Shown: in pieces, positions 11,206-43,556 of the stretch
Position numbering within the stretch: position 1 is the first letter of the stretch
How the letters are laid out: every line of letters begins with the position of its first letter
Assembly: GCA_963693055.1 (NCBI GenBank)
Contig: OY843751.1
Coordinates: 3,808,001 to 3,872,000 of the forward strand
Reading direction: 5' to 3'
Length of the DNA: 64,000 nucleotides
From: a bacterium
GTDB lineage: Bacteria; Zhuqueibacterota; Zhuqueibacteria; Residuimicrobiales; Krinioviventaceae
Notes under the pieces: generated by a model
Told to the model about the DNA's origin: nothing
Seen by the model: the letters and a program-made list of their open reading frames with translations, nothing else
Database searches by the model: none
Made by a program: the position numbers and the translations under genes

Positions 11206-13281
11206 TTATGGATGTTTGCGTTGTAACAAAGATTTTAATAAAATCTGCATATCAAAAACCATTGAATAATTTTTCAAATAATAAATATTATATTTATTAC
11301 GATCTTTATCGGTTTCCGAGTGGCGATTTATTTGTTCATATCCGGTTATACCGGGTTTCAAAGACAATACTACAGGATTATCCAAATCCGTTTTTCCAGC
11401 TTGAATATCACGCCCTACAAAGCTGATTGTTCCATTTAAAATAGAGCTTAGCCGGGGTAAATATTTCAATAAAATCTTTTTTTCATCATTAAAATGATAC
11501 AATGTATATTCACGATTTGCGGAATAGTAATGGGTTTCCGCAGTTAAACTTTTTCTATTTATCCAGCGCAGCCACGCATACAGTGGCGCGGTAATAATCA
11601 TGAGCAGCAATGCCAAAGTAAAATCAAAAACGCGTTTAACACCGCGATAAAAGTTAATGTGGAGCTTGTAGTCGATATCCACAAACGGTAAATCATCAAT
11701 ATAATCAATAGATGCTTTGCCTATGATCACATCCAGATTACTGGGGACCATTTTAAAACTTACGCCTCCGTTAGAGCCGGCGATTACTGAGAGCATCTTG
11801 TTATAATCGATACGATCAGTAGCAAAAATCACTTCCTGCACTTTTTCCCGACGAATGATCTCATTTATGTGCTGAAACGTTCCCAAAACGGGTAGTCCAG
11901 CAACCTCTTCATACTCCATCTGATTTGTGGTTAAAATTATACCGGTAATATGGTATGAATCCTGAAGATTGGCCTGTATACGATCAACCAGTGCCTTACT
12001 TGCCTGGGCATCTCCCACAATCACAGAACGACGATGCCAGATGGAATCTCCAATCTTGTTCATGACAGAACCAAAAGAACGTCTGGCAAACCACTTTAAC
12101 AGCACCCGCCATCCTGGTAAAAAGACCAGATTCAAGCCACCGGCAACCAGTACAACAAAACGGGAGAATCCCCACTGGTTCAGAAAAAAAGTAAGCGCGC
12201 TGTTTACAACCCATCCCAACAGAACAGCGGACGTACACTTGGAACCTGAATACTTGTATCGGAAATACACACCATGAGCGGTCATGCTGAATATCCAAAC
12301 CACAGTATATAACAAATGTACTTTGAGAAAAGGCAGCCAGGGAAATTCGGGATAAAAGCGAAACAGGATAGCCAGAGAAAGTGACAGGGTCAGGAAAAGG
12401 AAATCAATGCCGGGTAAGATCATATAGCGTATTAACGCACTGAAAAATGCGAGCATGGCCCGTGCTTTAATTGCAGAATTAAGGAACCATGATGGTAAAA
12501 TTGCGTTACTTCCAGAGAAATGCTTGTTAACAAATAAATTCATTGCCTCATAAAACAACTTGCGCTGTGCCAAAGGACTCTTTTTAGAGCTTTCTCCTTT
12601 AAAATGGATGATCTGGGTATCGGGAACATAGTAAATTTTGTATCCTCCCTGACGGATACGATAACACCAGTCCAAATCCTCTCCATACATGAAAAAGTCT
12701 TCATCAAAACCGCCTACCTTGTCAACGGTCTCTTTGCGTACCAGCATAAAAGAACCGGAGATGGCCTCTACCTCGTAAAATTTTTCAGGATCAAGATAGG
12801 TTAAATTGTAACGGCCGAACAACCGGCTTTGAGGGAACAGGTTTGCCAGCCCTGAAATCTTGGTAAAGGCTACCCACGGTGTGGGAAAGCTGCGTCTGCA
12901 GGCAAGTTGCAACGTACCATCAGGATTCAGGATCTTGCAGGTCAGCGCACCTGCATCCGGATATGTGTCAAAGAACGATAACAATGTTGTAAAGGTATCT
13001 TCCTGTACAATGGTATCGGGATTAATGACGCAAAGATAATCGCCCTTACTCTGTTGTATCGCCTGGTTATTGGCTTTACCAAAGCCAAAATTTTCAGTAT
13101 TGGCAATCAGCTTGACATCTGGAAACCGTTTTTCAACCAATTCAACCGTACCGTCAGAAGACGCATTATCAACAACGAAAATTTCGTGTTCAATATTTCG
13201 CAAAGCTTTTTTTAGAGAAGTAATTGCCTGCCCTAAAAAATCGCGTACATTGTAGCTGACTATAATAACTGAAAGTGTCAA
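11206..13281 (-). CDS. GT2 glycosyltransferase fused to membrane/CoA-binding-like and degenerate sugar-transferase domains
   Basis: SVIIVSYN, VVDNASSDGT, NPDT, FDEDFFMYGEDLDWC; TMs; C-terminal KRVFD...KPGITG...YYLKNYS. Confidence 0.85.
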   Translation of the reverse strand: MTLSVIIVSYNVRDFLGQAITSLKKALRNIEHEIFVVDNASSDGTVELVEKRFPDVKLIANTENFGFGKANNQAIQQSKGDYLCVINPDTIVQEDTFTTLLSFFDTYPDAGALTCKILNPDGTLQLACRRSFPTPWVAFTKISGLANLFPQSRLFGRYNLTYLDPEKFYEVEAISGSFMLVRKETVDKVGGFDEDFFMYGEDLDWCYRIRQGGYKIYYVPDTQIIHFKGESSKKSPLAQRKLFYEAMNLFVNKHFSGSNAILPSWFLNSAIKARAMLAFFSALIRYMILPGIDFLFLTLSLSLAILFRFYPEFPWLPFLKVHLLYTVVWIFSMTAHGVYFRYKYSGSKCTSAVLLGWVVNSALTFFLNQWGFSRFVVLVAGGLNLVFLPGWRVLLKWFARRSFGSVMNKIGDSIWHRRSVIVGDAQASKALVDRIQANLQDSYHITGIILTTNQMEYEEVAGLPVLGTFQHINEIIRREKVQEVIFATDRIDYNKMLSVIAGSNGGVSFKMVPSNLDVIIGKASIDYIDDLPFVDIDYKLHINFYRGVKRVFDFTLALLLMIITAPLYAWLRWINRKSLTAETHYYSANREYTLYHFNDEKKILLKYLPRLSSILNGTISFVGRDIQAGKTDLDNPVVLSLKPGITGYEQINRHSETDKDRNKYNIYYLKNYSMVFDMQILLKSLLQRKHP

Positions 13282-17435: not shown

Positions 17436-17534
17436 AATAAAATCCAAACCTGTAATACAAAAATGATTTGCATATATGAGCCATTTTTAATATTATTAGC
17501 TTTCCCCTATTACATATTTCAGGACCAGACTATC

Positions 17535-20741: not shown

Positions 20742-20840
20742 TTCATATACCAAACTCTTTTGGTTCAAGTATTCAATTATTTTAAAAAAGTCACTATTCA
20801 TTCACAAATACGATACGACTAAAACAGACATGGAGACGCT

Positions 20841-24966: not shown

Positions 24967-25872
24967 ATGGGGTATTCAATGGAAAGTAAGGCTGGTCAAG
25001 AAATTCGTGCGTTTCATATCTTTCTAGTTATTTTATACATACTCTCTTTTATTTCAATCATATACTTTTTTTATAAAGGCTGGGATTATTATTCAACCCC
25101 CTTTCCTGAAAGACCCCGCCATGATGGTTACACACTCTTGAAACCCGGTGGAAATTACGGACATGGATTTGGCATTATTGGGTCCCTCATGATGCTTATT
25201 ATGTTATTGTACTCTATACGCAAGCGTGCACAAATATTTTACAAGTTGGGAAATATTACCAAATGGCTGGATATACATATCTATCTTGGCATTTTTGGTC
25301 CTTTGTTAATTATACTGCACAGTTCTTTCAAAGTAAACGGCCTGGTTGCAATCAGCTTTTACTCTATGCTGGCGGTTGCGCTTAGTGGTATAATTGGTCG
25401 TTATCTGTATTTACAAATCCCCCGTAACATACAAGGGCATGAGCTATCATTACTTGAACTCAAAAACATGGATGCTCAACTCTCTAAAAAATTAAAAAAT
25501 GAGTTTGATTTTTCAGATGACATGATTTCAAAACTGGAGCATTTGACCAAAAGCAGCCACCTCGAATCCCAAAATTCAATGGTTTTTCTGGTTAAATTGT
25601 TATTGGATGATATTTACAGAGCCAGAGTTTTTCGCACATTTAAAAAAGAAAATGCTTTTATAAAGAAATTGCCACCCAAACAGGTAAAAGATCTTTTAAA
25701 AATAGCTCGCAATAAAGTGATTCTTCACCGTAGAATTCTTGCATTGAATAAAATACAACAGCTCTTTCACTATTGGCACGTTATTCATAAACCTTTTGCA
25801 ATCATTATGATTATTATCATGTTTGTTCATATTGCAATTGCAATTACATTTGGATATAAATGGATATTCTAA
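24967..25872 (+). CDS. His-rich polytopic membrane protein, putative heme b / ferric-reductase-like TM subunit
   Basis: About 5-6 TMs with histidines HGFG, WLDIHIYLG, ILHSSFK, YWHVIHKPF, FVHIA; first gene of the cytochrome operon. Confidence 0.65.
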   Translation: MGYSMESKAGQEIRAFHIFLVILYILSFISIIYFFYKGWDYYSTPFPERPRHDGYTLLKPGGNYGHGFGIIGSLMMLIMLLYSIRKRAQIFYKLGNITKWLDIHIYLGIFGPLLIILHSSFKVNGLVAISFYSMLAVALSGIIGRYLYLQIPRNIQGHELSLLELKNMDAQLSKKLKNEFDFSDDMISKLEHLTKSSHLESQNSMVFLVKLLLDDIYRARVFRTFKKENAFIKKLPPKQVKDLLKIARNKVILHRRILALNKIQQLFHYWHVIHKPFAIIMIIIMFVHIAIAITFGYKWIF

Positions 25873-25873
25873 A

Positions 25874-27553
25874 ATGAAAGCACAATTCTTTGTTGTACTG
25901 ATCCTGCTTTTATCACTGCCCGCATTTGCGCAATTGTCCCCGGGAAAACTGCACCAATCCCATGCGGATCTTGAAGGTTTGGAAAACTGTTCCAATTGTC
26001 ATCAATTCAAAAGAAAAATCAGTGCTGACAATTGTCTGGATTGTCACATGATTTTAAACAATAGAATTGCATCCGGCAGGGGGCTGCATGCAAATGACGA
26101 GTATAATGAATGTGAAAAATGCCACATAGAACATCAGGGGCGAGATTATGATCTGATATACTGGCCAGATGGAAAAGACAATTTTAAACATGAGCTCACA
26201 GGCTATCATCTTGAAGGCAAGCATTCTCAGCTGAATTGCAGTCAGTGTCATCAATCCCAAAATATAACCAACAAAGCACTGTTTCTTGAAAAGAAAAAGG
26301 ATCTCAATAAAACCCTGCTGGGCCTTGATGAAGATTGCCTTTCATGCCACCATGATGAACATCGTTCCCAATTCACTCAGGAATGCATCACCTGCCATAC
26401 GATGGAAGGTTGGAAGCCTGCAAAAAAGTTTAATCATCAAAACACCCATTTTAGTTTAACCGGCAAACATCAACAAGTAGATTGTGTAAAATGCCATCCA
26501 CAAATCACCGATAATAAATACAATGCACATCCTTCTTTTTCAAAATATAGCAATCTCGAGTATCAAAATTGCATCAACTGCCATCAGGATGTGCATAATA
26601 ATAAATTTGGTTCCAATTGCGAATCCTGCCACAACACATCAGGATGGAAAACTGTGAACCATAACCAGTTTGATCACAACCGTACATCCTTCCCATTAAA
26701 AGGGAAACACATCACAACGGCTTGTGAACAGTGCCATTTACCCGGCAGACCCATTAAAATTAACAAATATGACAGGTGTGCTGATTGTCATACGGATTAC
26801 CATAAAAACCAATTCACCAAAACCGAACATATTGGCAATTGTGAACAATGCCATACCGAACAGGGCTTTACTCCATCGCTATTTACAATTGAAAAGCATA
26901 ATAACCTGGATTTCCATCTGGAAGGTAGTCACAAAGCCGTTCCGTGTATTGCCTGCCACAAAAAAATCAATACGGGCACCAGTTATGAAACCATTCAATT
27001 CCATTATCCAGATAAAAAATGCAGTTCCTGTCACAAAGATCCACATAATGGTCAAGTCAATAAATTCACCTCACAACAGGGATGTGAAGCATGCCACTCT
27101 GTTGCAAGCTGGTACACAATCAATTTTGATCACAATCAGACAAAATTCCCTCTTGAGGGTCGCCATAAAAATGTTTCATGCGCACAATGTCACGTGGAAG
27201 AGGATCTGTCAAAGAACAAGACCTATGCCTTTGTTAATCTTGTTTCAGATTGCCAGTCATGTCACAATGATGTTCATCTGGGGCAATTCCGGGAAGACCA
27301 ACTTGTAAACGGAAATAACCATACCAACTGTGATAGATGCCATACTCCCGCAAACTGGATTGCTGAAAAGTTTGAACATAATAGAGACGCCTCATTCAAA
27401 CTTGATGGTGCTCACCAGTCAGTCCCATGTAATGACTGCCATAAAGAATTATCATTAAAAGGCAACAAGTTTAGATTATATAAACCCCTGCGCTCGGATT
27501 GTAAATTCTGTCATACCCCTTCAAAAAAAACTAACGATACCAGGTCAAACTAA
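25874..27553 (+). CDS. Multiheme c-type cytochrome, 20 CxxCH
   Basis: Signal peptide MKAQFF...AFAQ, LSPGKLH start, 20 CxxCH counted, repeated F(D/N)H..T.FPL.G.H triheme modules. Confidence 0.92.
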   Translation: MKAQFFVVLILLLSLPAFAQLSPGKLHQSHADLEGLENCSNCHQFKRKISADNCLDCHMILNNRIASGRGLHANDEYNECEKCHIEHQGRDYDLIYWPDGKDNFKHELTGYHLEGKHSQLNCSQCHQSQNITNKALFLEKKKDLNKTLLGLDEDCLSCHHDEHRSQFTQECITCHTMEGWKPAKKFNHQNTHFSLTGKHQQVDCVKCHPQITDNKYNAHPSFSKYSNLEYQNCINCHQDVHNNKFGSNCESCHNTSGWKTVNHNQFDHNRTSFPLKGKHITTACEQCHLPGRPIKINKYDRCADCHTDYHKNQFTKTEHIGNCEQCHTEQGFTPSLFTIEKHNNLDFHLEGSHKAVPCIACHKKINTGTSYETIQFHYPDKKCSSCHKDPHNGQVNKFTSQQGCEACHSVASWYTINFDHNQTKFPLEGRHKNVSCAQCHVEEDLSKNKTYAFVNLVSDCQSCHNDVHLGQFREDQLVNGNNHTNCDRCHTPANWIAEKFEHNRDASFKLDGAHQSVPCNDCHKELSLKGNKFRLYKPLRSDCKFCHTPSKKTNDTRSN

Positions 27554-29664
27554 TGAAAGCCGTATCTATGAAATATTTATTATTTCTACTTTTACTGCTG
27601 AATTCAATATTATTAGCAGTAACCAGTCCTCATGGGGATATAAAAATACCCTGCGAAACCTGTCATACTCCGGCTAACTGGCAGGTTAACAGAGAAACCT
27701 TAAAATTTGATCATAACAGCACCGGGTATCCGTTAACAGGTGTGCATAGCCAGATAGATTGCAAAGACTGCCATGAGAGTCTGGTTTTTCATCAAACTGG
27801 TGTGCAATGTATGGATTGCCATACAGATATTCACCAGGGACAGTTGGGCAAAGAATGCGAAACCTGTCATACCCCCTTAAACTGGGAAAACCGGCAGAAT
27901 ATGCTAAAAGACCATTCTCTTTTACGCTTTCCCTTGTATGGTGCACATGAACGCATTGATTGCGACGACTGTCACCATGCCGGCTTGACAGAATATGCCA
28001 ACACCCCTGTTGAATGTATCTATTGCCATGCGGATGACTATAACTCAACCCAAAATCCTGATCATAAAGAAGCACAATTCCCCACAACCTGTGATGACTG
28101 CCACCCCATACAATCTCTTACCTGGCAAACCCGTGAATTTGATCATTCATTTTACCCATTGACCGGTGCGCATCAAAATGTAACCTGTGCAGATTGCCAC
28201 CACGGTACCTATACCAACACGCCCAATACATGTTATGGATGCCATAACACAGACTATGCGGCTACTATCGATCCCAATCATCAGGCATTTGGGTTCGATA
28301 CAGACTGTTCACAATGTCACACTACTGATACATGGACCCGGACTGCGTTCGATCACTATCAAGCATCCGGCTTTGAATTGATTGGTGCGCACCAGACATT
28401 ACAATGCAGTCAATGCCACATCAACAATCAGGGAACCGGATTACAAAGAGATTGTTATGGCTGTCATTTAACAGATTACAATTCCGTCAAAGAACCTGAC
28501 CATCAACTTGGTCAATATCCTCACGAATGTACAATGTGCCACAATGTGAACAATTGGAGCCCTGCCGACTTTGATCATAACCAGACCGGATTTCCCCTTA
28601 CAGGCGCTCACCAGGCTGTTGAATGTTCGGATTGTCACGAAAATAATGTTTATGCCGGAACTCCATCGGATTGCTACTCGTGTCACGAACCGGATTTCAA
28701 GTCCGTGACAGAACCCAATCACGTCACCGGTAATTTTGATCACGTATGTACCATCTGTCATTCCACAACCACATGGACACCAGCAACCTTTGATCATAAT
28801 AATACCGGTTTTCCGCTTACCGGAGCACATACAACAGCAACATGTCTGGATTGCCATGTTAATGGATATACCAATACGCCATCAGATTGCTACTCGTGCC
28901 ACGAACCGGATTTCAAGTCCGTGACAGAGCCCAATCACGTCACCAGTAATTTTGATCATGTGTGCACTATCTGCCACTCTACAACCGCTTGGACACCCGC
29001 AACCTTTGATCATAATAATACCGGTTTTCCGCTTACCGGAGCACATACAACAGCAACATGTCTGGATTGCCATGTTAATGGATATACTAATACGCCGTCA
29101 GATTGCTATTCGTGCCACGAACCGGATTTCAAGTCCGTGACAGAGCCCAATCACGTCACCGGTAATTTTGATCACGTTTGCACTATCTGCCACTCCACAA
29201 CCGCATGGACACCAGCAACCTTTGATCATAATAATACCGGTTTTCCGCTTACCGGAGCACATACAACAGCAACATGTCTGGATTGCCATGTTAATGGATA
29301 TACCAATACACCAGCGGATTGTTTTTTCTGTCATGAAAACGAGTACAATAATACAACAGATCCCAATCATAAAGCTTCTCAATTCCCGGTTACCTGTCAG
29401 GATTGTCACAATACCAACAACTGGGAGCAAACCACCTGGGACCATGATGCCCGCTATTTCCCCATTTATTCCGGCGAGCATCGCGGAGAATGGGATGCAT
29501 GTTCTGATTGTCACACCAACGCATCAAATTATACCGTATTTGAATGTATCAACTGTCATGAGCATCAAAAATCTGAAATGGACAACGAACATGATGAAGT
29601 AAGAAACTATCAGTACCTGAGTACGGCTTGTTATAATTGTCACCCAAATGGGAAAGAAGATTAA
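27553..29664 (+). CDS. Multiheme c-type cytochrome, 28 CxxCH
   Basis: Signal peptide, 28 CxxCH counted, ~72-aa triheme modules; TAATG coupling to both neighbours. Confidence 0.92.
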   Translation: MKAVSMKYLLFLLLLLNSILLAVTSPHGDIKIPCETCHTPANWQVNRETLKFDHNSTGYPLTGVHSQIDCKDCHESLVFHQTGVQCMDCHTDIHQGQLGKECETCHTPLNWENRQNMLKDHSLLRFPLYGAHERIDCDDCHHAGLTEYANTPVECIYCHADDYNSTQNPDHKEAQFPTTCDDCHPIQSLTWQTREFDHSFYPLTGAHQNVTCADCHHGTYTNTPNTCYGCHNTDYAATIDPNHQAFGFDTDCSQCHTTDTWTRTAFDHYQASGFELIGAHQTLQCSQCHINNQGTGLQRDCYGCHLTDYNSVKEPDHQLGQYPHECTMCHNVNNWSPADFDHNQTGFPLTGAHQAVECSDCHENNVYAGTPSDCYSCHEPDFKSVTEPNHVTGNFDHVCTICHSTTTWTPATFDHNNTGFPLTGAHTTATCLDCHVNGYTNTPSDCYSCHEPDFKSVTEPNHVTSNFDHVCTICHSTTAWTPATFDHNNTGFPLTGAHTTATCLDCHVNGYTNTPSDCYSCHEPDFKSVTEPNHVTGNFDHVCTICHSTTAWTPATFDHNNTGFPLTGAHTTATCLDCHVNGYTNTPADCFFCHENEYNNTTDPNHKASQFPVTCQDCHNTNNWEQTTWDHDARYFPIYSGEHRGEWDACSDCHTNASNYTVFECINCHEHQKSEMDNEHDEVRNYQYLSTACYNCHPNGKED
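28660..29307 (+). repeat. Intragenic tandem repeat 3 x 216 bp (72-aa triheme module)
   Basis: Units start at 28660, 28876 and 29092 (TPSDCYSCH...CTICH...CLDCHVNGYTN); near-identical DNA. Confidence 0.95.
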
Positions 29665-30467
29665 TGAAAACAGCATTTAAAATCTTGATTTTTCTCAGTA
29701 TCTCTACAGCATTTTTTATCAATTATGTATACTCGAAAGACATACCCCACAAGCAATTGAAACTGGAATGTAACAGTTGTCACCTGACAGAAAACTGGAA
29801 TACTATTACGTTTGACCACAAGTCAACACAATTTCCACTGGATGGCAGGCACCATAACCTGGAATGCGTTGACTGCCACAATCTTGAAGATTTTTCTCAA
29901 ATCAGGATGGAATGCAAACAATGTCATCTTGATATTCACCAGGGGAAATTAACATATCCCTGTGACCAATGCCATACAACCAGTGGGTGGCAGGTCAAAG
30001 ATATTTTCAAGGTCCATGCCAATACAACATTCCCGGTACTGGGCGCGCACAGTCGGTTGGATTGCGATGCCTGCCATATATCAGAAATTGTGGGTGAATT
30101 TGCCCGCATTCAATCAGATTGTTATACCTGTCATGAACAGGATTACAAAAACACGACTGATCCCTCACACCAGGATTTTGGATTTAATCACAGATGCGAA
30201 GATTGCCACAGTATGCTCGCATGGTTTCCGGCAATGTTTGCCGAGCACGAATCCCGCTTCCCCATCTCTTCCGGAGCGCATGCAGGTGAATGGGAAAATT
30301 GCAATATCTGTCATACCAATCCCGGTAATTTCCAGATATTCAGTTGTCTCAACTGTCATGAGCATAATCAATCGAGTATGGTTGGAGAACATGACGAAAT
30401 AAGTGGATTTAGCTACAACAGTGATGCGTGTTACCGTTGTCATCATGATGGCAAAGCGGAGGATTAA
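29664..30467 (+). CDS. Decaheme c-type cytochrome, short paralog of the 28-heme protein
   Basis: Signal peptide MKTAFK..., 10 CxxCH; C-terminus (FPISSGAHAGEW...CLNCHEH...CYRCHHDGKAED) matches the upstream cytochrome. Confidence 0.9.
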   Translation: MKTAFKILIFLSISTAFFINYVYSKDIPHKQLKLECNSCHLTENWNTITFDHKSTQFPLDGRHHNLECVDCHNLEDFSQIRMECKQCHLDIHQGKLTYPCDQCHTTSGWQVKDIFKVHANTTFPVLGAHSRLDCDACHISEIVGEFARIQSDCYTCHEQDYKNTTDPSHQDFGFNHRCEDCHSMLAWFPAMFAEHESRFPISSGAHAGEWENCNICHTNPGNFQIFSCLNCHEHNQSSMVGEHDEISGFSYNSDACYRCHHDGKAED

Positions 30468-30469
30468 TT

Positions 30470-32068
30470 ATGAACTTTATAAAAAATAGTATTTTCATCC
30501 TGATTTTGATTTCTATTTCGAGTATTTCCGCACAAGAATCTGCTAAAGATTTTACCATTAAATATATCTCGAATGAAAACATTTATATTGATGGCGGCAG
30601 CATAGATGGACTTGCAGTTGGAGATACAATAATCGTAATGCGTAAAAACACTCGTATTGCGGTAATGACGATTAATTACACAGCAGATCATTCAGCGGCA
30701 TGTACAATTGTATCGCAAAGCATGCAAGTTCAACCGGGAGATTTGGCAAGGCCTTTGGTGCTTCGTCAGCAGGAAAAATTCGAAACCGTGTCTTCTCCAC
30801 TGAAAACAAGAAAAACCATACTACGCCAAAAGACCCAAACAAAACAGAATGATATGAAAATCAGGGGCAGCGTTTCTTTGCAATGGTACCATTTTGAAGA
30901 CATGTCTGAAGGAAATTTCAGTTTTGATCAACCGGGTGGACGATTGAATCTAAGAATGAAGAATGTGTTTACCAAAAACCTGAATTTCAGGATCAAAACC
31001 AAAAGCCGGTATAACAAACGGATGACGCATCTAAGCGGTACTACAGCCAGAAACGAATGGCGCAACCGCATTTATACCGTCAGTCTGAGTTTTGATGATG
31101 ATAATGCAGCAATAAATTATAAACTGGGACGTATTATCTCGAACAAATTCAGCGGCATTGGTTATATTGACGGTGCTTTAATACAACACAATACAACCGA
31201 AAATTTACGATACGGTGTTTTTGCCGGTACGCAACCCCAATGGCAGTATGCCGATTTCCAGACATCCATACAAAAATATGGCGCCTATATTAATTATTTA
31301 CAAGGCCAATATGGAGGCAAGCGGTTTGAATCTACCCTGGCCGCTGCCGGAGAATATCATGGTGCTGAGGTAAGCCGCGAATTTGTCTATCTGCAAAACA
31401 GCTTTTCTTCACAACAATTTAATCTCTATAGCAGTGCAGAACTCGATGTAAACCGTGACTGGCGCAAAGATAAAAGCGGCGAAAATATATCTCTTACCAA
31501 TCTTTATCTCAACTTTTCTTATGCTATTACCCGGAGCATTACAACAGGATTAAGTTTTGACGATCGGAAAAATTATTATACATACGAAATCCGTTCTGTT
31601 GCAGACAGCCTGTTTGATGATGCCATGCGTTATGGAGCTCGCTGGAATCTGAACCTCCGTTTGCCGGGCAACTATCGGGTGTATGCTAACGCGGGTATAC
31701 GTGCCAGAGAAACCGATACGGAAAACACATATTCCGGGGCATTGGGCGTCAGTAAAAACAATATTACTGATCACAACCTGTATGTAAATTTTTATGGATC
31801 AGGATTTCAAAATTATTTTTCAACAGGATTTAATGCATCTTTAAGAATGGGCAAATACTTTAGGGCTGGGCATAATGTAAACATGAGTTATGGTAACTAT
31901 TCGTATGTGTTGAGCACAACCAATACCACCCGTTCTAACCACTGGTTACGTTTAAACGGAAATTTACAGATTTTTAGACACATCTATCTCGATGAGAATT
32001 ACGAATATATCTGGGGATCGGACTCGCCAGGGCACCGGATATATATTGAAATGGGTTACCGGTTCTAG
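30470..32068 (+). CDS. Outer-membrane beta-barrel protein with N-terminal soluble domain (putative cytochrome-associated porin)
   Basis: Signal peptide, alternating aromatic beta-strands, terminal YIEMGYRF signature. Confidence 0.7.
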   Translation: MNFIKNSIFILILISISSISAQESAKDFTIKYISNENIYIDGGSIDGLAVGDTIIVMRKNTRIAVMTINYTADHSAACTIVSQSMQVQPGDLARPLVLRQQEKFETVSSPLKTRKTILRQKTQTKQNDMKIRGSVSLQWYHFEDMSEGNFSFDQPGGRLNLRMKNVFTKNLNFRIKTKSRYNKRMTHLSGTTARNEWRNRIYTVSLSFDDDNAAINYKLGRIISNKFSGIGYIDGALIQHNTTENLRYGVFAGTQPQWQYADFQTSIQKYGAYINYLQGQYGGKRFESTLAAAGEYHGAEVSREFVYLQNSFSSQQFNLYSSAELDVNRDWRKDKSGENISLTNLYLNFSYAITRSITTGLSFDDRKNYYTYEIRSVADSLFDDAMRYGARWNLNLRLPGNYRVYANAGIRARETDTENTYSGALGVSKNNITDHNLYVNFYGSGFQNYFSTGFNASLRMGKYFRAGHNVNMSYGNYSYVLSTTNTTRSNHWLRLNGNLQIFRHIYLDENYEYIWGSDSPGHRIYIEMGYRF

Positions 32069-32102
32069 TTTTTTACGTAGATTATTAATCAGGATGCACA
32101 CT

Positions 32103-33422
32103 ATGGAATCACTTTTTATATGGATAGCAGCAATACTTTTAATGGGGTTTGTCTTTATCCCTTATTTTATAAAATTCCGTAAGCAACAAAAAGCGGACTT
32201 TGACAGGCACCAGGAAGCGGTTTCTTTGGGAGCAGATAAACCCATAGCGCAATTCCCGCAAATTGATCTCATGCGATGCTTTGGATGCGGTTCTTGTGTA
32301 AGAGCATGCCCCGAAGGTGATGTGTTGGGCGTTGTTATGGGTAAATCCACTGTAATTAACGGATTGAAATGCGTGGGGCACGCGCGTTGCGCCGAAGCGT
32401 GCCCGGTCAATGCCATAACCGTAGGTTTGGGAGATATCAAACAGCGGGACGATATACCGGTGATGGATGAGTACAATGAAACATCCATTCCGGGGATTTT
32501 TATTGCCGGCGAACTGGGTGGATTGGCACTGATTAAAAACGCAATAGGCCAAGGTAAAAAAGTAGTCGACCGGATCGCTGCATCCATTTCAAAACGTGAT
32601 GATCTTTATGATGTAATCATTATCGGTGCGGGCCCGGCAGGCATCAGCGCCGCGCTAACAGCCATTCAGCACAAACTCTCGTATCTGGTCCTTGACCAGC
32701 AGGGATTTGGCGGTACCATTTTACAATATCCCCGCAAAAAAGTGGTCATGACCCATCCCGTAGAAATACCACTTTACGGCTGGTTAAATAACAGTGAATA
32801 TACCAAGGAAGAACTGCTTGCAATCTGGGATGACATTCATCAGCAGCACCATTTAAATATAAAAATTGGTGAAAAACTGGAAAAAGTAACAAAACAAGAC
32901 GATTTATTGAGTATCAAAACACAAAACAGCCTCTATAAAAGCCAAAGTTTAATATTGGCACTGGGACGCCGTGGCACTCCCAGAAAACTGGGTGTCCCCG
33001 GAGAAGAGTTGTCCAAAGTCATGTACAAACTGGTTGATGCCGAAAGCTTTCAAAACAATCACATTTTGGTTGTGGGTGGTGGTGACAGTGCGATTGAGGC
33101 TGCTGTAGGCCTTGCCATGCAGCCCGGCAATACCGTAACAATTTCTTATCGCAAATCTAAATTTTTCCGATTAAAAAAGAAAAACCAATACAATATTGAT
33201 GAGCTCGTTAATGACGGCAAAGTTAATATAATCTTTGATTCAAATGTAAAAGAAATTAATACAGATTCTGTACTCTTGCAAACGGATAAAGAAACGATGA
33301 AGCTTCCCAATGATTATATATTAATATTTGCCGGCGGCGAACCACCGTTCAAGCTGTTAAAAGATATGGGCATCACCTTTGGCGGCAGCGAAAAGACAGA
33401 GGTTTTGCAAGAGATTTCGTAA
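32103..33422 (+). CDS. Membrane-anchored 4Fe-4S ferredoxin + FAD/NAD(P)H TrxB/YpdA-like oxidoreductase
   Basis: N-terminal TM, CFGCGSCVRACP and CVGHARCAEACP, IIGAGPAG, VVGGGDSAIEAA; start placed at MESLF. Confidence 0.85.
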   Translation: MESLFIWIAAILLMGFVFIPYFIKFRKQQKADFDRHQEAVSLGADKPIAQFPQIDLMRCFGCGSCVRACPEGDVLGVVMGKSTVINGLKCVGHARCAEACPVNAITVGLGDIKQRDDIPVMDEYNETSIPGIFIAGELGGLALIKNAIGQGKKVVDRIAASISKRDDLYDVIIIGAGPAGISAALTAIQHKLSYLVLDQQGFGGTILQYPRKKVVMTHPVEIPLYGWLNNSEYTKEELLAIWDDIHQQHHLNIKIGEKLEKVTKQDDLLSIKTQNSLYKSQSLILALGRRGTPRKLGVPGEELSKVMYKLVDAESFQNNHILVVGGGDSAIEAAVGLAMQPGNTVTISYRKSKFFRLKKKNQYNIDELVNDGKVNIIFDSNVKEINTDSVLLQTDKETMKLPNDYILIFAGGEPPFKLLKDMGITFGGSEKTEVLQEIS

Positions 33423-34099
33423 ATGGAAAAAGTGAATTCAATATTATATCTTTGGGCTATTTGATAACCGTGCTTTTAGCTGACTCCCGGCCACTGATAA
33501 CTGATAACTTGAACCGGCCCTTTTGACACGCCAGTCCATCTTCCGGCCGCCAGGCTCCCCTACTCCATTCCTAACCACAAAAATAACAATAAAGCTTGGT
33601 AGCTTTTTTTATTTATCGTCCTATAGCATAGTTAGCTATCTGAATTGTAGCGATTATCCTGAAAAGCATTTATTTTTTCACTCTCTGGATATATTTTATT
33701 TTATACTTTGATTTTTACGAGTGTTGTTTACACAATGCCACAAAAGAGATAAAAAAAGGACACTATCTCGATAGAAATCCAATTCTACAATGTTCCTAAA
33801 ATTATTATTGATATAGTATTAAAACAGGGTTCTTTGACTATATTTGGTTTTTCGATGAAGTGCCGGAGCTTTGAGTGCAAAATTTTAGTATATCCATTAT
33901 CAAAACACATAGAGAATAGATATTGAATGGTGCTTATTCTGAAATTATCACTTTTTTATTCAGGAATAAAAAGTGTTATAAATAAAACCCGGTGTCTTAA
34001 CAATACATATTAGCTTTTTTTATACTCTCAAATTGTATAAATAAGTATATATTTAGTCAAAAGTGCAGATAATCGTATATAGGATCAAATATTTGAAAA

Positions 34100-38318: not shown

Positions 38319-38379
38319 AAACGCAAAAAGGCCCCGTTTCCGGCAGCCTCAAGATCTCATGATGTTGAATTGTCGAACC
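38319..38379 (-). repeat. Isolated degenerate copy of the tRNA-Glu-linked repeat unit
   Basis: AAACGCAAAAAGGCC (15-nt exact match to array units), GGCAGCCT, then GTCGAACC at near-identical spacing; hairpin retained. Confidence 0.75.
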
Positions 38380-38728
38380 TTTTTTATAAAGACTTTAAAC
38401 AACTACTTGATTTAACATGATTAAAGACAGAGATGTAACTAATCAGAAAAAAAAACGCTGAAAATGTTTTTCAATCAATATTTCATTAATCCAATTATTT
38501 TATCGATCAGTTCAAAAAAACTAGTATTTCTCCGGCCGAATACAAAAGCGCGAGTATTTTGGATTTCAAATTATATTCCGGAATTAATGTATATAATTTT
38601 TTGTATATTGATATATACCAAAGGGCTAAACACGAATTTTCACACTGGACGTCAATTTTGCATTGCAGGATTGTATTGCCGTTCGCGCCTGTTACCATTC
38701 ATGTTATATAGTTGAATCAAAAAATCTT

Positions 38729-39289
38729 ATGAAACTATACATTAAATACATGGTAAGCTTGCGATGCAAGATGATGGTAGAAGAAGAGTTGAAAAAACTT
38801 GGACTACATCACTCAAAAATTGAATTGGGTATGGTTGAAATTATAGAAAACCTATCTATAGAACAACGTGAGCAATTTAAAAAAAACTTGTCAAGATCAG
38901 GGCTTGAGCTGCTGGATGATAAAAAAAGTATCCTGATTGAAAAAATAAAAAATGTAATTATTGAAATGATTCATCATTCAAATGAATTACCCAAAATGAA
39001 TTATTCGGATTATATCAGTGAACAATTAGGCTATGATTATACTTATCTGGCAAACACATTTTCAGAGGTCAAGGGCATAACCATTCAGCAGTACATTATC
39101 AATCATAAAATCGAAAAGGTCAAAGAATTACTTTTATATGACGAGTTGAATCTTACGGAAATTTCCTATAAACTACATTATAGCAGTGTTGCCCATTTGT
39201 CCAATCAATTCAAAAAAGTAACGGGTCTATCTCCTTCCTTTTACAAACAATTGAAGCAAAAACGTAAGAAAAACCTGGAAAACATGTGA
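38729..39289 (+). CDS. AraC family transcriptional regulator (Bacteroidota-type)
   Basis: MKLYIKYMVSLRCK N-terminus; YDYTYLANTFSE...LNLTEISYKLHYSSVAHLSNQFKKVTGLSPS HTH. Confidence 0.9.
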   Translation: MKLYIKYMVSLRCKMMVEEELKKLGLHHSKIELGMVEIIENLSIEQREQFKKNLSRSGLELLDDKKSILIEKIKNVIIEMIHHSNELPKMNYSDYISEQLGYDYTYLANTFSEVKGITIQQYIINHKIEKVKELLLYDELNLTEISYKLHYSSVAHLSNQFKKVTGLSPSFYKQLKQKRKKNLENM

Positions 39290-39291
39290 TA

Positions 39292-39321
39292 TATGTAACA
39301 TTTAGCCATTTTTATGTAACA
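39292..39321 (+). promoter_or_regulatory. Putative AraC-type tandem operator
   Basis: TATGTAACA direct repeat at 39292 and 39313 (21-bp period) between the AraC gene and the DUF1611 operon. Confidence 0.5.
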
Positions 39322-39574
39322 CAATAACGGTTTGACAAGCCTACATTCCTATACAAGTATTTCTTGTTTATCTCAACAAAATCAGATTGTTTGGAACCTC
39401 TCGTATTGTTATGTGTTCCTGTTTTTATTTCTTTTACAATAACAGCTAATCTTGGGTTTATTAATCAATCCATATACCTTATCGCAACCCAACCACATGA
39501 AGCTACAAGTAAATACTGCAAAATACGTATATTCAATTATGAATACTGGTATTAACCTAATCAAAAGGTAACCA

Positions 39575-40669
39575 ATGAAAACAAAAGCGATTGTTTATAG
39601 TGAAAATGAATTCGGCAAGCTGGATGGTAAAGTTGCTAATGGACTGGCCAGACAATCAGAAAAATATGATATTCTTGGTATAATCGATAGTTCCAAAGCA
39701 GGGCTTGATGCCGGAGAGTATCTTGATGGAATAAAGAACGGAATTCCAATCTTTAAAAGTATTAAAGATTCGATTAAAAAGCTGGGGTTTGTTCCCGAAT
39801 CTTTAATTTATGGCATTGCCCCTCTCTCAACATTGCTTGATGATGACCAGAGGAATATATTATTTGACGCTATGAAAACAGGCATGAACATTATAAGCGG
39901 ACTGCCTGAATACTTTACTGATGATGAAGAATTTATACAGAAAGCGCAAAAATATAATGTAAAAATAGTCGATGTCAGAAAACCCCCGGCACGTAAAGAC
40001 TTGCATTTATTCTCTGGACGTATTATTAATGTCAATGTACCGGTCATTACTGTATTGGGCACAGATTGTGCCGTTGGCAAGAGGACTACCGCACTCAAAA
40101 TTGTTGAAGCCTTGAGACAAAATGGCTTAAATGCCTCATTTGTAACAACAGGTCAAACCGGTTTGCTTCAGGGATCAAAGTTTGGTATAGCAGTAGATGT
40201 TTTAACAACTGGATACTCTACCGGAGAAGTAGAAAATGCAGTTGTCAATGCTTATGAACAAGAAAATCCGGATATAATTGTCGTCGAAGGCCAGGGCTCT
40301 CTGGGGCATCCGGCATTTACCTCTTCAGTTGCAATTATAAGGGGATCTATGCCAAATGCAATTATACTTCAGCATCCGCCTAAAAGAAAAAAACGGTGCG
40401 ATTTTTCCAGCTTTAATATGCCCACACTTGAAAGTGAGATTGAACTCTTGCAAGTATTTTCTAAATCAAAAGTCATTGCCATTACAATCAATCATGAAGA
40501 CATGACTGACAGTGAAGTGAGTAATAAAATTAAAGAATATGAATATAGATTTGAAATCCCTGCAACTGATGTTTTAAAATTCGGATGTGATAAAATTGTT
40601 GAACAGTTATTTAACACTTTTCCGGAATTACAGGAAAGCGCACCGCTGGTATGTCAACTCCAAGATTAG
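39575..40669 (+). CDS. DUF1611 / DgcN-like (D-glutamate N-acetyltransferase-like) P-loop protein
   Basis: GTDCAVGKRTT, TGQTG, VEGQGSLGHP motifs. Confidence 0.85.
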   Translation: MKTKAIVYSENEFGKLDGKVANGLARQSEKYDILGIIDSSKAGLDAGEYLDGIKNGIPIFKSIKDSIKKLGFVPESLIYGIAPLSTLLDDDQRNILFDAMKTGMNIISGLPEYFTDDEEFIQKAQKYNVKIVDVRKPPARKDLHLFSGRIINVNVPVITVLGTDCAVGKRTTALKIVEALRQNGLNASFVTTGQTGLLQGSKFGIAVDVLTTGYSTGEVENAVVNAYEQENPDIIVVEGQGSLGHPAFTSSVAIIRGSMPNAIILQHPPKRKKRCDFSSFNMPTLESEIELLQVFSKSKVIAITINHEDMTDSEVSNKIKEYEYRFEIPATDVLKFGCDKIVEQLFNTFPELQESAPLVCQLQD

Positions 40670-41715
40670 AAATAGATCTCAAAAAAATTACCCATAATGC
40701 AACATTGCTGAAAGAGTTGTATGGATCAAAAGGGGTTGATGTTATTGGGGTGACAAAAGCCATTTGTGGAGAACCTGTTATTGCTGATGCTTTACTACAA
40801 GCAGGTATAAACATCCTTGCTGATTCAAGGATAGACAATATCATAAAAATGCGCAATTCAGGAATAGATGCCAAGTTTATGCTTCTAAGGACGCCCTGCC
40901 TCAGTCAGTCCAAAAGTGTTGTAAAATTTGCGGACATTAGTCTGAATTCTGAACTCATTGTGATTCAAAAACTTTCACATTTTGCAATAGAATCTCAAAC
41001 CACGCATCAAATCATTTTAATGGTTGAACTTGGAGATTTAAGAGAAGGTATCATGCCAAAGGATTTAGATCGTACTGTTCAACAGGTATTAAAGCTTGAA
41101 GGCATTGAGCTTGTAGGTTTAGGGACAAATCTGGCCTGTTTTGGCGGCATTAAACCTGATAATGAAAAAATGGCAATGCTGTCATCTATTGCAATGGATG
41201 TTGAAAAAAAATTTAGCCTCATATTGGAATTCATTTCCGGTGGCAACTCGGCCAATTATAATTGGTTCATTTCAGCTACAAATGTAGGAAAAATTAACAA
41301 CCTGCGGCTTGGAGAATCAATTTATTTGGGATGTGAGACACTTGACAGGGAACCCATTTCCGGATTGTTTACTGACGCGTTTACCCTGGTAGTAGAAGTT
41401 ATTGAATCTAAAATAAAACCCTCTCTTCCCTATGGAAAAACGGGTCAGGATGCCTTTGGAAACACCCCTGAATTTCAAGACCAAGGTTCTATGAGGAGAG
41501 CTATATTGGGGATTGGTTTGCAGGATATTCCGGTTTCCGGATTAACTCCCAGAATGGATATTGATATCCTGGGAGCAAGCAGTGATCACATGATCATTAA
41601 CGCAAAAAACATAAAACTACAGGTGGGAGACGAATTGAAATTTAATTTAAATTATGGAGCTTTGCTTGCAGCAATGACTTCGTCATACGTATTTAAAGAG
41701 ATTAAAAGCATATGA
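40651..41715 (+). CDS. Alanine/ornithine racemase family PLP-dependent enzyme (fold III)
   Basis: GVTKAICG (PLP Lys), ADSRIDNI, MVELGDLREG, TNLACFGG, SGGNS, LRLGES, GASSDH. Confidence 0.88.
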   Translation: MSTPRLEIDLKKITHNATLLKELYGSKGVDVIGVTKAICGEPVIADALLQAGINILADSRIDNIIKMRNSGIDAKFMLLRTPCLSQSKSVVKFADISLNSELIVIQKLSHFAIESQTTHQIILMVELGDLREGIMPKDLDRTVQQVLKLEGIELVGLGTNLACFGGIKPDNEKMAMLSSIAMDVEKKFSLILEFISGGNSANYNWFISATNVGKINNLRLGESIYLGCETLDREPISGLFTDAFTLVVEVIESKIKPSLPYGKTGQDAFGNTPEFQDQGSMRRAILGIGLQDIPVSGLTPRMDIDILGASSDHMIINAKNIKLQVGDELKFNLNYGALLAAMTSSYVFKEIKSI

Positions 41716-42386
41716 ATACTCGAGAATATTGCATAAAAGCTGAACAAAAAGAAAAAAGGATCAAACAGCTTTATCCCACTTTTCCCGTCAAAGATGACAA
41801 TTCACCACTGGTTAGTCTAAAAGATTCGGGATTTAGTTTAATGTTTGAGCCCACAATTATAGAAAATTATCAATATTTAGTAAGAGAAGCTGTTTATGAA
41901 AAAATTGGTCGCATAAGTAAAATACTGGTCCAGGACGATAAAGAATTGATCATTCGTTCAGCCTGGAGATCTTTTGAACATCAGCGTTTTTTATGGGAAA
42001 ATAAAGTTGTCTTTATGCAACAAACACATCCGGACAAATCATTGGAAGAAATAGCAGAAATCGTTTCTTTTTATATCGCTCCTGATACCTTGTCGATGCA
42101 CGCAACCGGTGGCGCTGTGGATGCGTTGATATTTGATTTGAAGAACAATTGTGTTATGGATTTTGGAACGAATGAGGGTTTAAAAATAGACCTGAATGAA
42201 AGATGTTACCCCTACCATCCGGATATATCATTCAATGCCCAAAAGAACAGAAAATTATTAATTGATCTGTTTGAAAATGAAGATTTTGTCGTTGATGTTA
42301 TAGAATACTGGCATTTCAACTATGGCAATGCCTGTTGGGCAATAGAAACAGGAAATGAAGCTATATATGATGTTATTAATCCATAA
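41712..42386 (+). CDS. D-alanyl-D-alanine dipeptidase (M15, VanX/DdpX-like)
   Basis: SAWRSFEHQ, SMHATGGAVD (SxHxxGxAxD), EYWHFNYG. Confidence 0.85.
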   Translation: MNTREYCIKAEQKEKRIKQLYPTFPVKDDNSPLVSLKDSGFSLMFEPTIIENYQYLVREAVYEKIGRISKILVQDDKELIIRSAWRSFEHQRFLWENKVVFMQQTHPDKSLEEIAEIVSFYIAPDTLSMHATGGAVDALIFDLKNNCVMDFGTNEGLKIDLNERCYPYHPDISFNAQKNRKLLIDLFENEDFVVDVIEYWHFNYGNACWAIETGNEAIYDVINP

Positions 42387-42477
42387 ATAATTTCCCCTCC
42401 TTTTAATCATTCTGATTATTTACATAAAAATATATTCAATTGTGTGACACCTTTTCCAATTCAAAAACGCCATTAAT

Positions 42478-43317
42478 GCATTCCGAAGGCGAGGTGGCCT
42501 CTTGTTGCGGGAATGATAAAATACGAGTCTGAACCACTGGACGATACTCTAATACCCCAAAACGCAAAAAGGCCGCCTAACTTGGCAGCCTTTAAAGCAT
42601 CCCCTGGGGGAGTCGAACCCCTGTTGCGGGAATGATAAAATACGAGTCCAAACCACTGGACGATACTCTAATACCCCAAAACGCAAAAAGGCCGCCTAAC
42701 TTGGCAGCCTTTAAAGCATCCCCTGGGGCGGGTTAAATCCCTGTTGCGGGAATGATAAAACCAGAGTCGGGATCACTGGACGATACTCTAATACCCCAAA
42801 ACGCAAAAAGGCCGCCTAACTTGGCAGCCTTTAAAGCATCCCCTAGGGCGGGTTAAATCCCTGTTGCGGGAATGATAAAATACGAGTCCGAACCACTGGA
42901 CGATACTCTAATACCCCAAAACGCAAAAAGGCAGCCATTCTTGGCAGCCTTTAAAGCATCCCCTAGGGCGGGTTAAATCCCTGTTGCGGGAATGATAAAA
43001 TACGAGTCCGAACCACTGGACGATACTCTAATACCCCAAAACGCAAAAAGGCAGCCATTCTTGGCAGCCTTTAAAGCATCCCCTGGGGGAGTCGAACCCC
43101 TGTTGCGGGAATGATAAAACCAGAGTCGGTACCACTGGACGATACTTGATACTCTTAAACGCAAAAAGGCTATCATTTCTGATAGCCTTTTAAAAGCATC
43201 CCCTGGGGCGGGTCGAACCCCTGTTGCGGGAATGATAAAACCAGAGTCGGTACCACTGGACGATACTTGATACTCTTAAACGCAAAAAGGCTATCATTTC
43301 TGATAGCCTTTTAAAAG
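42478..43317 (-). repeat. Tandem array of seven ~120-bp units: terminator hairpin + degenerate tRNA-Glu copy
   Basis: ACGCAAAAAGG recurs at 42562, 42681, 42801, 42921, 43041, 43159, 43280; tRNA-like segments start at 42478, 42597, 42716, 42836, 42956, 43076, 43196 and align with tRNA-Glu 43318-43389. Confidence 0.95.
43279..43314 (-). terminator. Intrinsic terminator of the tRNA-His/tRNA-Glu transcript (first array hairpin)
   Basis: Minus strand AAAAGGCTATCA-GAAA-TGATAGCCTTTTTGCG immediately after tRNA-Glu. Confidence 0.8.
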
Positions 43318-43389
43318 CATCCCCTAGGGGAGTCGAACCCCTGTTGCAGGAATGAAAATCCTGAGTCCTAACCACTAGACGAAGGGGAC
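43318..43389 (-). tRNA. tRNA-Glu (TTC), CCA not encoded
   Basis: GTCCCCT/AGGGGAT acceptor, D-loop AGTGGTTA, CAGGA-TTTTCAT-TCCTG anticodon arm, AGGGG-TTCGACT-CCCCT T-arm. Confidence 0.95.
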
Positions 43390-43416
43390 GTCTAAGTATT
43401 TTTTGGTGTAAATCAG

Positions 43417-43490
43417 GGTGAGTGACGGGACTTGAACCCGCGACGACCAGGACCACAACCTAGCGCTCTACCAACTGAGCTACACCCACC
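43417..43490 (-). tRNA. tRNA-His (GTG) with G-1, CCA not encoded
   Basis: G-GTGGGTG/CACTCAC-C acceptor, CTAGG-TTGTGGT-CCTGG anticodon arm, GCGGG-TTCAAGT-CCCGT T-arm. Confidence 0.95.
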
Positions 43491-43527: not shown

Positions 43528-43556
43528 AATATATAGCTTTTTTTATTTCTAGTCAA
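43528..43556 (-). promoter_or_regulatory. sigma70 promoter of the tRNA operon
   Basis: Minus strand TTGACT-N17-TATATT about 40 bp upstream of tRNA-His; the -10 lies within palindrome AGCTATATA-A-TATATAGCT (43520-43538). Confidence 0.7.

What the first reader, a model, noticed from the sequence alone, without database searches (positions are those of the whole stretch)
42478..43389. Array of seven pseudo-tRNA-Glu + terminator units downstream of the real tRNA-Glu
Seen: each 118-121 bp unit holds a terminator-like hairpin with a T tract, a short spacer and a tRNA-Glu-derived segment. That segment keeps D-arm, variable-loop, T-arm and 3' acceptor sequence. It has lost the 5' acceptor strand (GTCCCCT) and anticodon-stem pairing, and the loop reads TTTTATCAT instead of TTTTCAT. 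All seven copies share these changes, so one diverged unit was amplified. Established: tRNA-linked repeats exist (e.g. the 178-bp repeats after E. coli tyrT), but those carry only a short tRNA 3' piece, whereas these span most of the tRNA. Inference: the array could be (a) a bank of spare or decoy attB sites for tRNA-Glu-targeting integrases, (b) a source of processed tRNA-like small RNAs, for example decoys for anticodon nucleases, or (c) neutral amplification.
Basis: partly seen in the sequence, partly recalled or inferred. Interest (0 to 1): 0.85.

Follow-up and report, generated by a model that had tools for sequence, protein, structure and literature searches.

The report
Dead tRNA-Glu copies with terminators
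Behind this bacterium's glutamate tRNA gene lies a real, recombining row of broken tRNA copies separated by transcription-stop hairpins; it is likely the gene-less by-product of a small nuclease-and-hairpin selfish DNA system that lodges at tRNA genes across this phylum, not a new working RNA.

Summary
The array is real. It has a 119-121-bp period, with six full pseudo-tRNA-Glu copies (gene positions 8-73), a seventh whose 3' half has decayed, and seven terminators.

It also occurs, rearranged, in the only other genome of the genus, and at none of 58 other loci from the phylum. The copies have lost tRNA pairing, while the terminators keep pairing through compensatory changes. Genome-specific bases fixed across all copies point to concerted evolution.

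The same tRNA-terminator-pseudo-tRNA design surrounds small GIY-YIG nuclease genes at other tRNAs of these genomes and across the phylum (26 of 48 loci). In the sister genome the Glu units carry a hairpin that also flanks a GIY-YIG gene. However, no tRNA-Glu locus has the nuclease gene, and these copies lack the cassette's internal hairpin, so membership is not shown.

Best reading (0.5): a gene-less, nuclease-and-hairpin-derived repeat kept by unequal recombination. Main rival (0.3): plain tRNA-linked duplication. Decoy attB and decoy RNA are unsupported. Decayed units also border blocks of acquired genes, without an integrase.

This scan noted the cassette family on other DNA before; I found no paper on it.

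The parts
43528..43556 (-). sigma-70-like promoter (TTGACT-17-TATATT) upstream of tRNA-His/tRNA-Glu
   Evidence: 10 of 12 matches; consensus match only
43416..43489 (-). tRNA-His(GTG), intact
43317..43389 (-). tRNA-Glu(TTC), intact; the genome's only TTC gene
43281..43311 (-). terminator of the real gene (variant A, -14.8 kcal/mol)
43196..43263 (-). pseudo-tRNA copy 1 (positions 8-73)
43160..43190 (-). terminator, variant A
43076..43142 (-). pseudo-tRNA copy 2
43042..43072 (-). terminator, variant B (-13.3 kcal/mol)
43021..43041 (-). spacer of type B, ending in AGAGTATCG: same letters as the arm of the dispersed hairpin element, joined to the tRNA at a shared TCG
   Evidence: origin from the hairpin is inferred
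42956..43023 (-). pseudo-tRNA copy 3 (T loop damaged)
42922..42952 (-). terminator, variant B
42836..42903 (-). pseudo-tRNA copy 4 (identical to copy 3)
42802..42832 (-). terminator, variant C (-16.5 kcal/mol)
42716..42783 (-). pseudo-tRNA copy 5 (T loop and G18 changed)
42682..42712 (-). terminator, variant C
42597..42663 (-). pseudo-tRNA copy 6
42563..42593 (-). terminator, variant C
42465..42544 (-). copy 7: positions 8-48 intact to 42503, then decayed 3' half, no terminator; orthologous to the last copy in G001
38663..42386 (+). gene block (AraC regulator, DUF1611, alanine racemase, D-Ala-D-Ala dipeptidase) lying between the array and a decayed unit
38319..38349 (-). decayed array-type terminator; in G001 the matching place holds a whole decayed unit with hairpin
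   Evidence: G001 score 111, best of 300 shuffles 35; 0 of 300 shuffles
33560..33608 (-). possible second decayed terminator and tail at the next gene-block boundary (weak)
   Evidence: 1 of 300 shuffles; one of eight comparisons in that call
11206..13281 (-). glycosyltransferase gene that directly follows tRNA-Glu in several relatives; marks about 29 kb of added DNA in this genome

Best explanation
The array is a row of non-functional tRNA-Glu copies plus terminators that is reshuffled between genomes, and it is likely a gene-less product of the small GIY-YIG nuclease/hairpin elements that lodge behind tRNA genes in this phylum. Shown: the unit design; loss of tRNA pairing; conserved terminators; genome-specific homogenisation; different copy number and order in the sister genome; a GIY-YIG-associated hairpin in the sister genome's spacers; the same design around nuclease genes at other tRNAs. 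Inferred step 1 (origin): a nick or break at the hairpin behind the terminator was repaired by joining the hairpin arm (..GAGAGTATCG) to the tRNA gene at the shared TCG (positions 8-10), giving the first unit. Inferred step 2 (growth): unequal recombination among units, and with the real gene, expands and mixes them. Only crossovers that leave the real tRNA intact survive, so shared damage collects in positions 13-42 while 43-73 and the terminator are refreshed. Inferred step 3: most transcription would stop at the first terminator, so the units act as DNA, not RNA. Nicking in trans by a GIY-YIG protein would drive or speed steps 1-2; this is untested.
For: Fold eroded: acceptor 1 of 7 pairs in all 10 full copies of both genomes, anticodon stem 2-4 of 5; T loop or T stem damaged in most. 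Terminator 97.7% paired with two compensated pairs, against 67-84% for the tRNA arms. Position 42 is C in 7 of 7 G000 copies, A in 5 of 5 G001 copies and T in both real genes, even in the orthologous last copies. The real gene is followed by terminator A in G000 but C in G001. Positions changed in all 10 full copies are 13, 21, 28, 31 and 42; none lies in 43-73. G001 spacers hold a CCTTCGATAC..ACTCAGG hairpin: 15 exact copies in G000, 45 in G001, 0-4 in the 17 other genomes of the family, controls 0-1. Three copies flank a 93-aa GIY-YIG gene in G001, and one lies about 400 bp from a GIY-YIG gene in G034. Of 48 distinct small-GIY-YIG loci examined, 30 have an intact tRNA within 700 bp upstream and 26 have tRNA-derived pieces after the gene; in L076, L078, L080 and L104 these start at positions 8-10. 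Gene-less units sit among gene-bearing ones at G001 tRNA-Met and G000 tRNA-Asp; wholly gene-less hairpin units follow tRNA-Pro in both genomes.
Against: No GIY-YIG gene or remnant at any of 60 tRNA-Glu(TTC) loci fetched, nor in the window's spacers or relics. The short GC hairpin that replaces part of a tRNA arm in 24 of 26 cassette pseudo-tRNAs (pattern drawn from those same loci) is absent from all Glu copies. The nucleases cluster by tRNA type (12 label changes against 28.3 shuffled) and no Glu clade was seen. G000's two intact small GIY-YIG genes belong to Asp and Met loci, and the hairpin-flanked gene of G001 is missing from G000. The hairpin is a genome-wide element and may have inserted later. 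The junction match is only 9-10 nt, and the same letters also resemble an inverted copy of the tRNA 3' end or tRNA-Gln. The 48 loci were ranked by a search seeded with two tRNA-linked proteins (50 of 208 matches fetched), which inflates the tRNA share. Array and hairpin expansion co-occur in one genus only, which is a single event.
Confidence: 0.5

Rival explanations
1. Ordinary tRNA-linked repeat: a spontaneous microhomology duplication of most of the tRNA gene plus terminator, amplified and homogenised by host recombination; the hairpin is a later passenger and no nuclease is involved.
For: No nuclease gene or cassette hairpin at the locus. E. coli has 22 such repeats at ten tRNA/rRNA loci (PMC8144298 passages). 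Between-genome difference of the copies (10.2 of about 68 columns) is within the 10-30% seen at four-fold sites of six neighbouring genes. Two relatives carry tandem intact tRNA-Glu genes (L028, L029).
Against: The other pseudo-tRNA repeats seen in these two genomes (Asp, Met, Pro, Lys, Gln) carry GIY-YIG genes or GC hairpins. The oldest, decayed unit in G001 already holds the hairpin, and the unit's 5' junction matches the hairpin arm.
Confidence: 0.3
2. Functional RNA or selected terminator stack: read-through transcripts are processed into ~80-nt RNAs closed by a substitute helix (AGUAUC:GAUGCU), acting as decoys or regulators; or the stacked terminators insulate the downstream antisense genes from the strong tRNA promoter.
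For: The substitute helix is predicted with probability 0.3-0.99 in isolated 88-nt windows of all six full copies. Pair 28-42 shows two different compensated states. Terminators are conserved with covariation. E. coli rrn repeats are transcribed by read-through and bind Hfq/CsrA (PMC8144298).
Against: The helix drops to 0-0.07 in 160-nt context, never varies, and the unit folds no better than shuffles (z -1.40). Copy number and sequence differ between sister genomes, and 58 other loci lack the array. Terminator variants may simply come from real terminators swapped in by recombination.
Confidence: 0.1
3. Integrase scars or a bank of spare attB sites for elements that target tRNA-Glu.
For: About 29 kb of added genes, including a type ISP restriction enzyme and an HNH nuclease, lie between the tRNA and its usual neighbour. 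Decayed units border gene blocks. Other tRNAs of this genome do host integrase islands.
Against: 0 of the genome's 7 PF00589 matches lie in the window. Units are 120 bp with nothing inside. Fragments start at position 8, whereas island crossovers fall in the anticodon loop, T loop or T/acceptor junction (PMC4383910 passages). The anticodon loop is altered in all copies.
Confidence: 0.08

Closest known systems
E. coli tRNA-linked repeats (TLR; tyrT/rtT and rrn repeats; PMC8144298, passages read)
   Same: Tandem non-coding repeats downstream of a stable-RNA gene, ending in that gene's own 3' end, associated with terminators.
   Different: TLRs share 18-19 bp; these share 66-68 nt including damaged D, anticodon and T arms, have a terminator in every unit, carry a mobile hairpin in the sister genome, and have relics bordering gene blocks.
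Ssn nucleases with NTS/SRM hairpins (PMC11893778; outline, Results part 1, sections 10 and 12 read)
   Same: Single-domain ~90-aa GIY-YIG genes flanked by their own dispersed hairpin repeat (seen here at G001 L101; that hairpin is in the G001 units).
   Different: The paper's main text never mentions tRNA. Cleavage and cd10448 membership were not tested. The array itself holds no gene.
Phage SegB-driven segmental amplification of tRNA genes (PMC13096335; abstract and passages read)
   Same: A GIY-YIG nuclease makes breaks that homologous recombination turns into tandem repeats of a tRNA locus, also in trans.
   Different: SegB is a phage homing endonuclease that amplifies intact tRNA genes under selection; here the copies are dead, chromosomal and long-lived, and no cut has been shown.
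tRNA-targeted genomic islands and their tandem arrays (Islander; PMC4383910, passages read)
   Same: A tRNA gene and a downstream fragment of it with foreign genes between (relic beyond the 4-kb block; G001 tRNA-Gln).
   Different: No integrase, 120-bp empty units, and a fragment extending to position 8 with a scrambled 5' half.

Membership tests
Functional tRNA gene | Paired acceptor stem, four-arm cloverleaf, 7-nt anticodon loop | tested here: not met
   Acceptor 1 of 7 pairs; no ARAGORN default call and no Rfam tRNA hit
tRNA-linked repeats (TLR) | Tandem repeats downstream of a tRNA gene ending in that gene's 3' end | tested here: met
tRNA-linked repeats (TLR) | Identity limited to 18-19 bp of the 3' end | tested here: not met
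   Homology spans positions 8-73
tRNA-linked repeats (TLR) | Transcribed by read-through and processed | not testable with these tools
   No RNA run holds this organism's array
tRNA-lodged GIY-YIG/hairpin cassette (not found in print; defined) | tRNA - terminator - pseudo-tRNA lacking the 5' acceptor strand - terminator, in tandem | tested here: met
tRNA-lodged GIY-YIG/hairpin cassette (not found in print; defined) | Small GIY-YIG gene inside at least one unit | tested here: not met
   0 of 60 Glu loci; no remnant in the window regions scanned
tRNA-lodged GIY-YIG/hairpin cassette (not found in print; defined) | Short GC hairpin replacing part of a tRNA arm | tested here: not met
   0 matches in both Glu arrays; present at the Pro and Gln loci
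tRNA-lodged GIY-YIG/hairpin cassette (not found in print; defined) | GIY-YIG-associated hairpin elsewhere in the unit | tested here: inconclusive
   Full hairpin in 2 G001 spacers and its relic; only a 7-9-nt arm match in G000
Ssn/SRM system | Single-domain GIY-YIG gene flanked by its hairpin repeat | tested here: not met
   Met at G001 L101, not at this locus, and that gene is absent from G000
Ssn/SRM system | cd10448 membership and sequence-specific ssDNA cleavage | not testable with these tools
   No CDD library; Pfam gives only PF01541, NCBIfam nothing over cut-off
tRNA-targeted genomic island (Islander) | Tyrosine integrase within the interval | tested here: not met
tRNA-targeted genomic island (Islander) | Fragment begins at an anticodon-loop, T-loop or junction crossover | tested here: not met
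   Begins at position 8 (sites)

The most novel reading that the evidence does not exclude
Pseudo-tRNA-plus-terminator units are the junction modules of an integrase-free gene-capture system at tRNA 3' ends. A small GIY-YIG nuclease nicks the hairpin, incoming DNA that ends in such a unit recombines in behind the tRNA, and the array is a stack of empty, ready junctions. The evidence is the decayed units between successive gene blocks downstream of tRNA-Glu, and the filled (G001, about 1.7 kb cargo closed by a hairpin-bearing pseudo-tRNA-Gln) versus empty (G000) tRNA-Gln site, with no integrase-sized ORF in the cargo.
Probability: 0.2. Interest if true: 0.85.

Novelty: new variant of a known kind. 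Interest (0 to 1): 0.5.

Why it matters
If the link holds, long pseudo-tRNA repeats in bacteria are footprints of a widespread selfish system of tiny nucleases and hairpins that I could not find in print. That would also offer a testable origin for tRNA-linked repeats, which have had no known function since 1978 (PMC8144298). The filled and empty pair at tRNA-Gln gives a direct test of integrase-free gene capture. If the rival is right, this is a long but ordinary tRNA-linked repeat.

Tried and rejected
Exact unit motif in GTDB genomes: 1 locus, the sister genome. Metagenome scan: 32 matches, all chance, none in a tRNA context.

RNA runs X15 and X22 cover only the tRNA genes, with other organisms' contigs; they say nothing on expression. 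Runs X5/X6 show the G001-type arrangement and are probably not a third strain.

The SD-like G run after the terminators is not diagnostic: 4 of 30 nuclease loci, 3 of 60 Glu tails, 3 of 44 G000 tRNAs. A suspected GIY-YIG C-terminal remnant at the G001 tRNA-Gln locus is not supported by a 29-sequence HMM; no GIY-YIG gene at 31 Gln(CTG) loci.

The 5' part of the relic as a real-tRNA-type sequence is not significant (101 of 500 shuffles). A Gln/Glu chimera for the unit's 5' half is possible but unresolved. ARAGORN at a lowered threshold gives 207 spurious calls and is uninformative. A loose hairpin pattern gave 32 hits against 19.6 shuffled and was replaced by a strict one (23 against 0). In one search my T-stem brackets were one pair short and one pair fell in a gap column, so T-arm counts are better taken. 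Rfam at E<=10 gave only sub-threshold hits.

Literature searches found no paper on GIY-YIG/pseudo-tRNA cassettes in bacterial chromosomes. The library lacks most subscription journals, and I opened no supplements; those of PMC11893778 could list tRNA-adjacent genes.

Full report
OBSERVATION. On the minus strand a promoter-like site precedes tRNA-His (43416-43489) and tRNA-Glu(TTC) (43317-43389). A tandem array follows, period 119-121 bp, 7.3 copies. Each period holds a terminator (three variants, -13.3 to -16.5 kcal/mol), a short spacer and a tRNA-Glu copy from gene position 8. Six copies run to position 73. The seventh matches to position 48, then has a decayed 3' half (6 of 500 shuffles) and no terminator. 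The unit occurs nowhere else in the 6.5-Mb genome. Short-read contigs of the matching sample cover 29-30 of 30 bins, but none spans the array, so copy number rests on the assembly.

DISTRIBUTION. The only other genome of the genus (G001) has the same locus with five copies in another order, two spacers carrying a 54-bp insert. 141 of 167 phylum genomes matched the tRNA query, and I fetched 60 of these loci. ARAGORN found the Glu gene in 59, one of them with no downstream sequence, and pseudo-copies were seen only in G000 and G001. The exact motif hit one GTDB locus, G001, and only chance sites in metagenomes. Most relatives are fragmented assemblies, in which repeats can be lost. The lineage is not named by any search.

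WHAT IS CONSERVED. In all 10 full copies of both genomes the acceptor keeps 1 of 7 pairs and the anticodon stem 2-4 of 5; the T loop is changed in 5 of 10. The terminator is 97.7% paired with two compensated pairs, the tRNA arms 67-84% (which includes the two real genes). One anticodon-stem pair (28-42) shows compensated states, which counts slightly the other way. Position 42 is C in 7 of 7 G000 copies, A in 5 of 5 G001 copies and T in both real genes, including the orthologous last copies. The terminator next to the real gene is variant A in G000 and C in G001. Changes shared by all copies lie at positions 13-42 only. This is the pattern of concerted evolution by unequal recombination, in which the real gene must stay intact (inference). 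Copies differ between genomes by about 15%, within the 10-30% at four-fold sites of six neighbouring genes. A substitute closing helix is predicted in isolated 88-nt windows but vanishes in 160-nt context, and the unit folds no better than shuffles.

LINK TO HAIRPINS AND SMALL NUCLEASES. Earlier scan notes pointed to GIY-YIG cassettes, which I then tested. G000 has two intact 85-87-aa GIY-YIG genes and one fragment, at tRNA-Asp and at the displaced 3' piece of tRNA-Met. Each is set among terminator-plus-pseudo-tRNA units; tRNA-Pro has gene-less units with a GC hairpin. In the phylum I examined 48 distinct loci out of 208 matches (the 30 best plus 20 I picked, 2 duplicates dropped). 30 have an intact tRNA within 700 bp upstream, 26 have tRNA pieces after the gene, and 24 of these have a short GC hairpin. 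The seed proteins were tRNA-linked and the hairpin pattern was drawn from these loci, so both shares are biased upward. The proteins cluster by tRNA type. The insert in the G001 Glu units is a dispersed hairpin with 15 exact copies in G000, 45 in G001 and 0-4 in the other 17 genomes of the family; it is also expanded in G105 and G138 of other families. Three copies flank a 93-aa GIY-YIG gene in G001 that G000 lacks at the syntenic place, and one lies about 400 bp from a GIY-YIG gene in G034. This is the layout described for Ssn nucleases (PMC11893778). The letters just before most pseudo-tRNA copies (AGAGTATCG; AAGTATCG in copies 1 and 2) match the arm of that hairpin and overlap the tRNA at TCG.

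AGAINST THE LINK. No GIY-YIG gene or remnant was found at 60 Glu loci, 31 Gln loci or the window's spacers and relics, with a 2-sequence and a 29-sequence HMM. The Glu copies lack the internal GC hairpin, and no Glu-type nuclease clade appeared. The junction match is short and has other possible sources. The array therefore fails membership of the cassette class on two defining features. It is filed as a long tRNA-linked repeat that likely arose and is maintained like the gene-less units of that class.

SURROUNDINGS. The glycosyltransferase gene that follows tRNA-Glu in several relatives lies 29 kb away here. Beyond the first gene block (AraC, DUF1611, racemase, dipeptidase) G001 has a whole decayed unit with hairpin (score 111, best of 300 shuffles 35). 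G000 has its terminator at that place (0 of 300). Weaker relics mark the next boundary. No tyrosine integrase lies in the window. At tRNA-Gln(CTG), G001 has about 1.7 kb of genes closed by a hairpin-bearing pseudo-tRNA-Gln and terminator, while G000 has the empty site. That locus shares the 14-nt terminator tail found only there, in the array and in the relic. This is the basis of the novel case, though ordinary insertion and deletion between direct repeats would look the same.

MECHANISM AND ODDS. Best (0.5): a gene-less, nuclease-and-hairpin-derived repeat. Origin by repair at the hairpin and in-trans nicking are inferred; the recombination pattern is shown. Precedent for GIY-YIG breaks giving tandem tRNA-locus repeats, also in trans, is phage SegB (PMC13096335). 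Rivals: plain duplication (0.3), functional RNA or terminator stack (0.1), integrase scars or decoy attB (0.08). The first two agree that the copies are not working RNAs.

KNOWN AND NEW. Closest described are the E. coli tRNA-linked repeats (PMC8144298 passages), Ssn/SRM, SegB amplification and Islander arrays (PMC4383910 passages). PMC2330249 and PMC3399842 were seen as search listings only. Eight searches found no description of chromosomal GIY-YIG/pseudo-tRNA cassettes; this scan noted them on other DNA. Verdict: real, a new variant of a known kind, interest 0.5.

Noticed in passing
G000 C1:5147242-5148050 (L022/L068): tRNA-Asp followed by repeated terminator units, hairpin pseudo-T arms and an intact 87-aa GIY-YIG gene; G001 lacks this arrangement directly after its tRNA-Asp (L153).
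   Followed up: partly
G000 C1:2551600-2552171 (L023); G001 L069: tRNA-Met cassette array: displaced about 30 kb by an integrase island in G000; directly behind the tRNA in G001 with two nuclease genes, a fragment and gene-less units.
   Followed up: partly
L172:3012-5150 (G001 C3) versus G000 C1:5984597: Filled versus empty tRNA-Gln(CTG) site: two cargo ORFs closed by a hairpin-bearing pseudo-tRNA-Gln whose anticodon arm matches other genera's allele; no integrase-sized ORF in the cargo.
   Followed up: partly
G000 C1:3672754-3673020; L152: Gene-less 116-bp pseudo-tRNA-Pro(TGG) units with a GC hairpin in both genomes.
   Followed up: partly
L088, L094, L109, L111, L113 (also L110, L114, L117): A separate clade of small GIY-YIG genes bounded by inverted TTCACCCYGTGARATA ends; in L088, L094, L109 and L113 the flanks look by eye like an interrupted tyrosine-integrase gene (not tested).
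   Followed up: no
L028 (G141) and L029 (G139): Two intact tRNA-Glu(TTC) genes in tandem, each with its own terminator.
   Followed up: no
L098 (G159 C90): tRNA-Pro flanked on both sides by hairpin-bearing pseudo-copies and a GIY-YIG gene, just upstream of the Arg-His-Glu cluster.
   Followed up: partly
window 24967-33422: Cluster of multiheme cytochrome c genes with a 216-bp internal repeat (28663-29321) and a flavin/4Fe-4S oxidoreductase, inside the added region.
   Followed up: no
window 17346-21962: Type ISP restriction-modification gene and an HNH nuclease at the far end of the added region.
   Followed up: no
G105, G138: The same dispersed hairpin is independently expanded (53 and 55 copies) in two distant genomes.
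   Followed up: no
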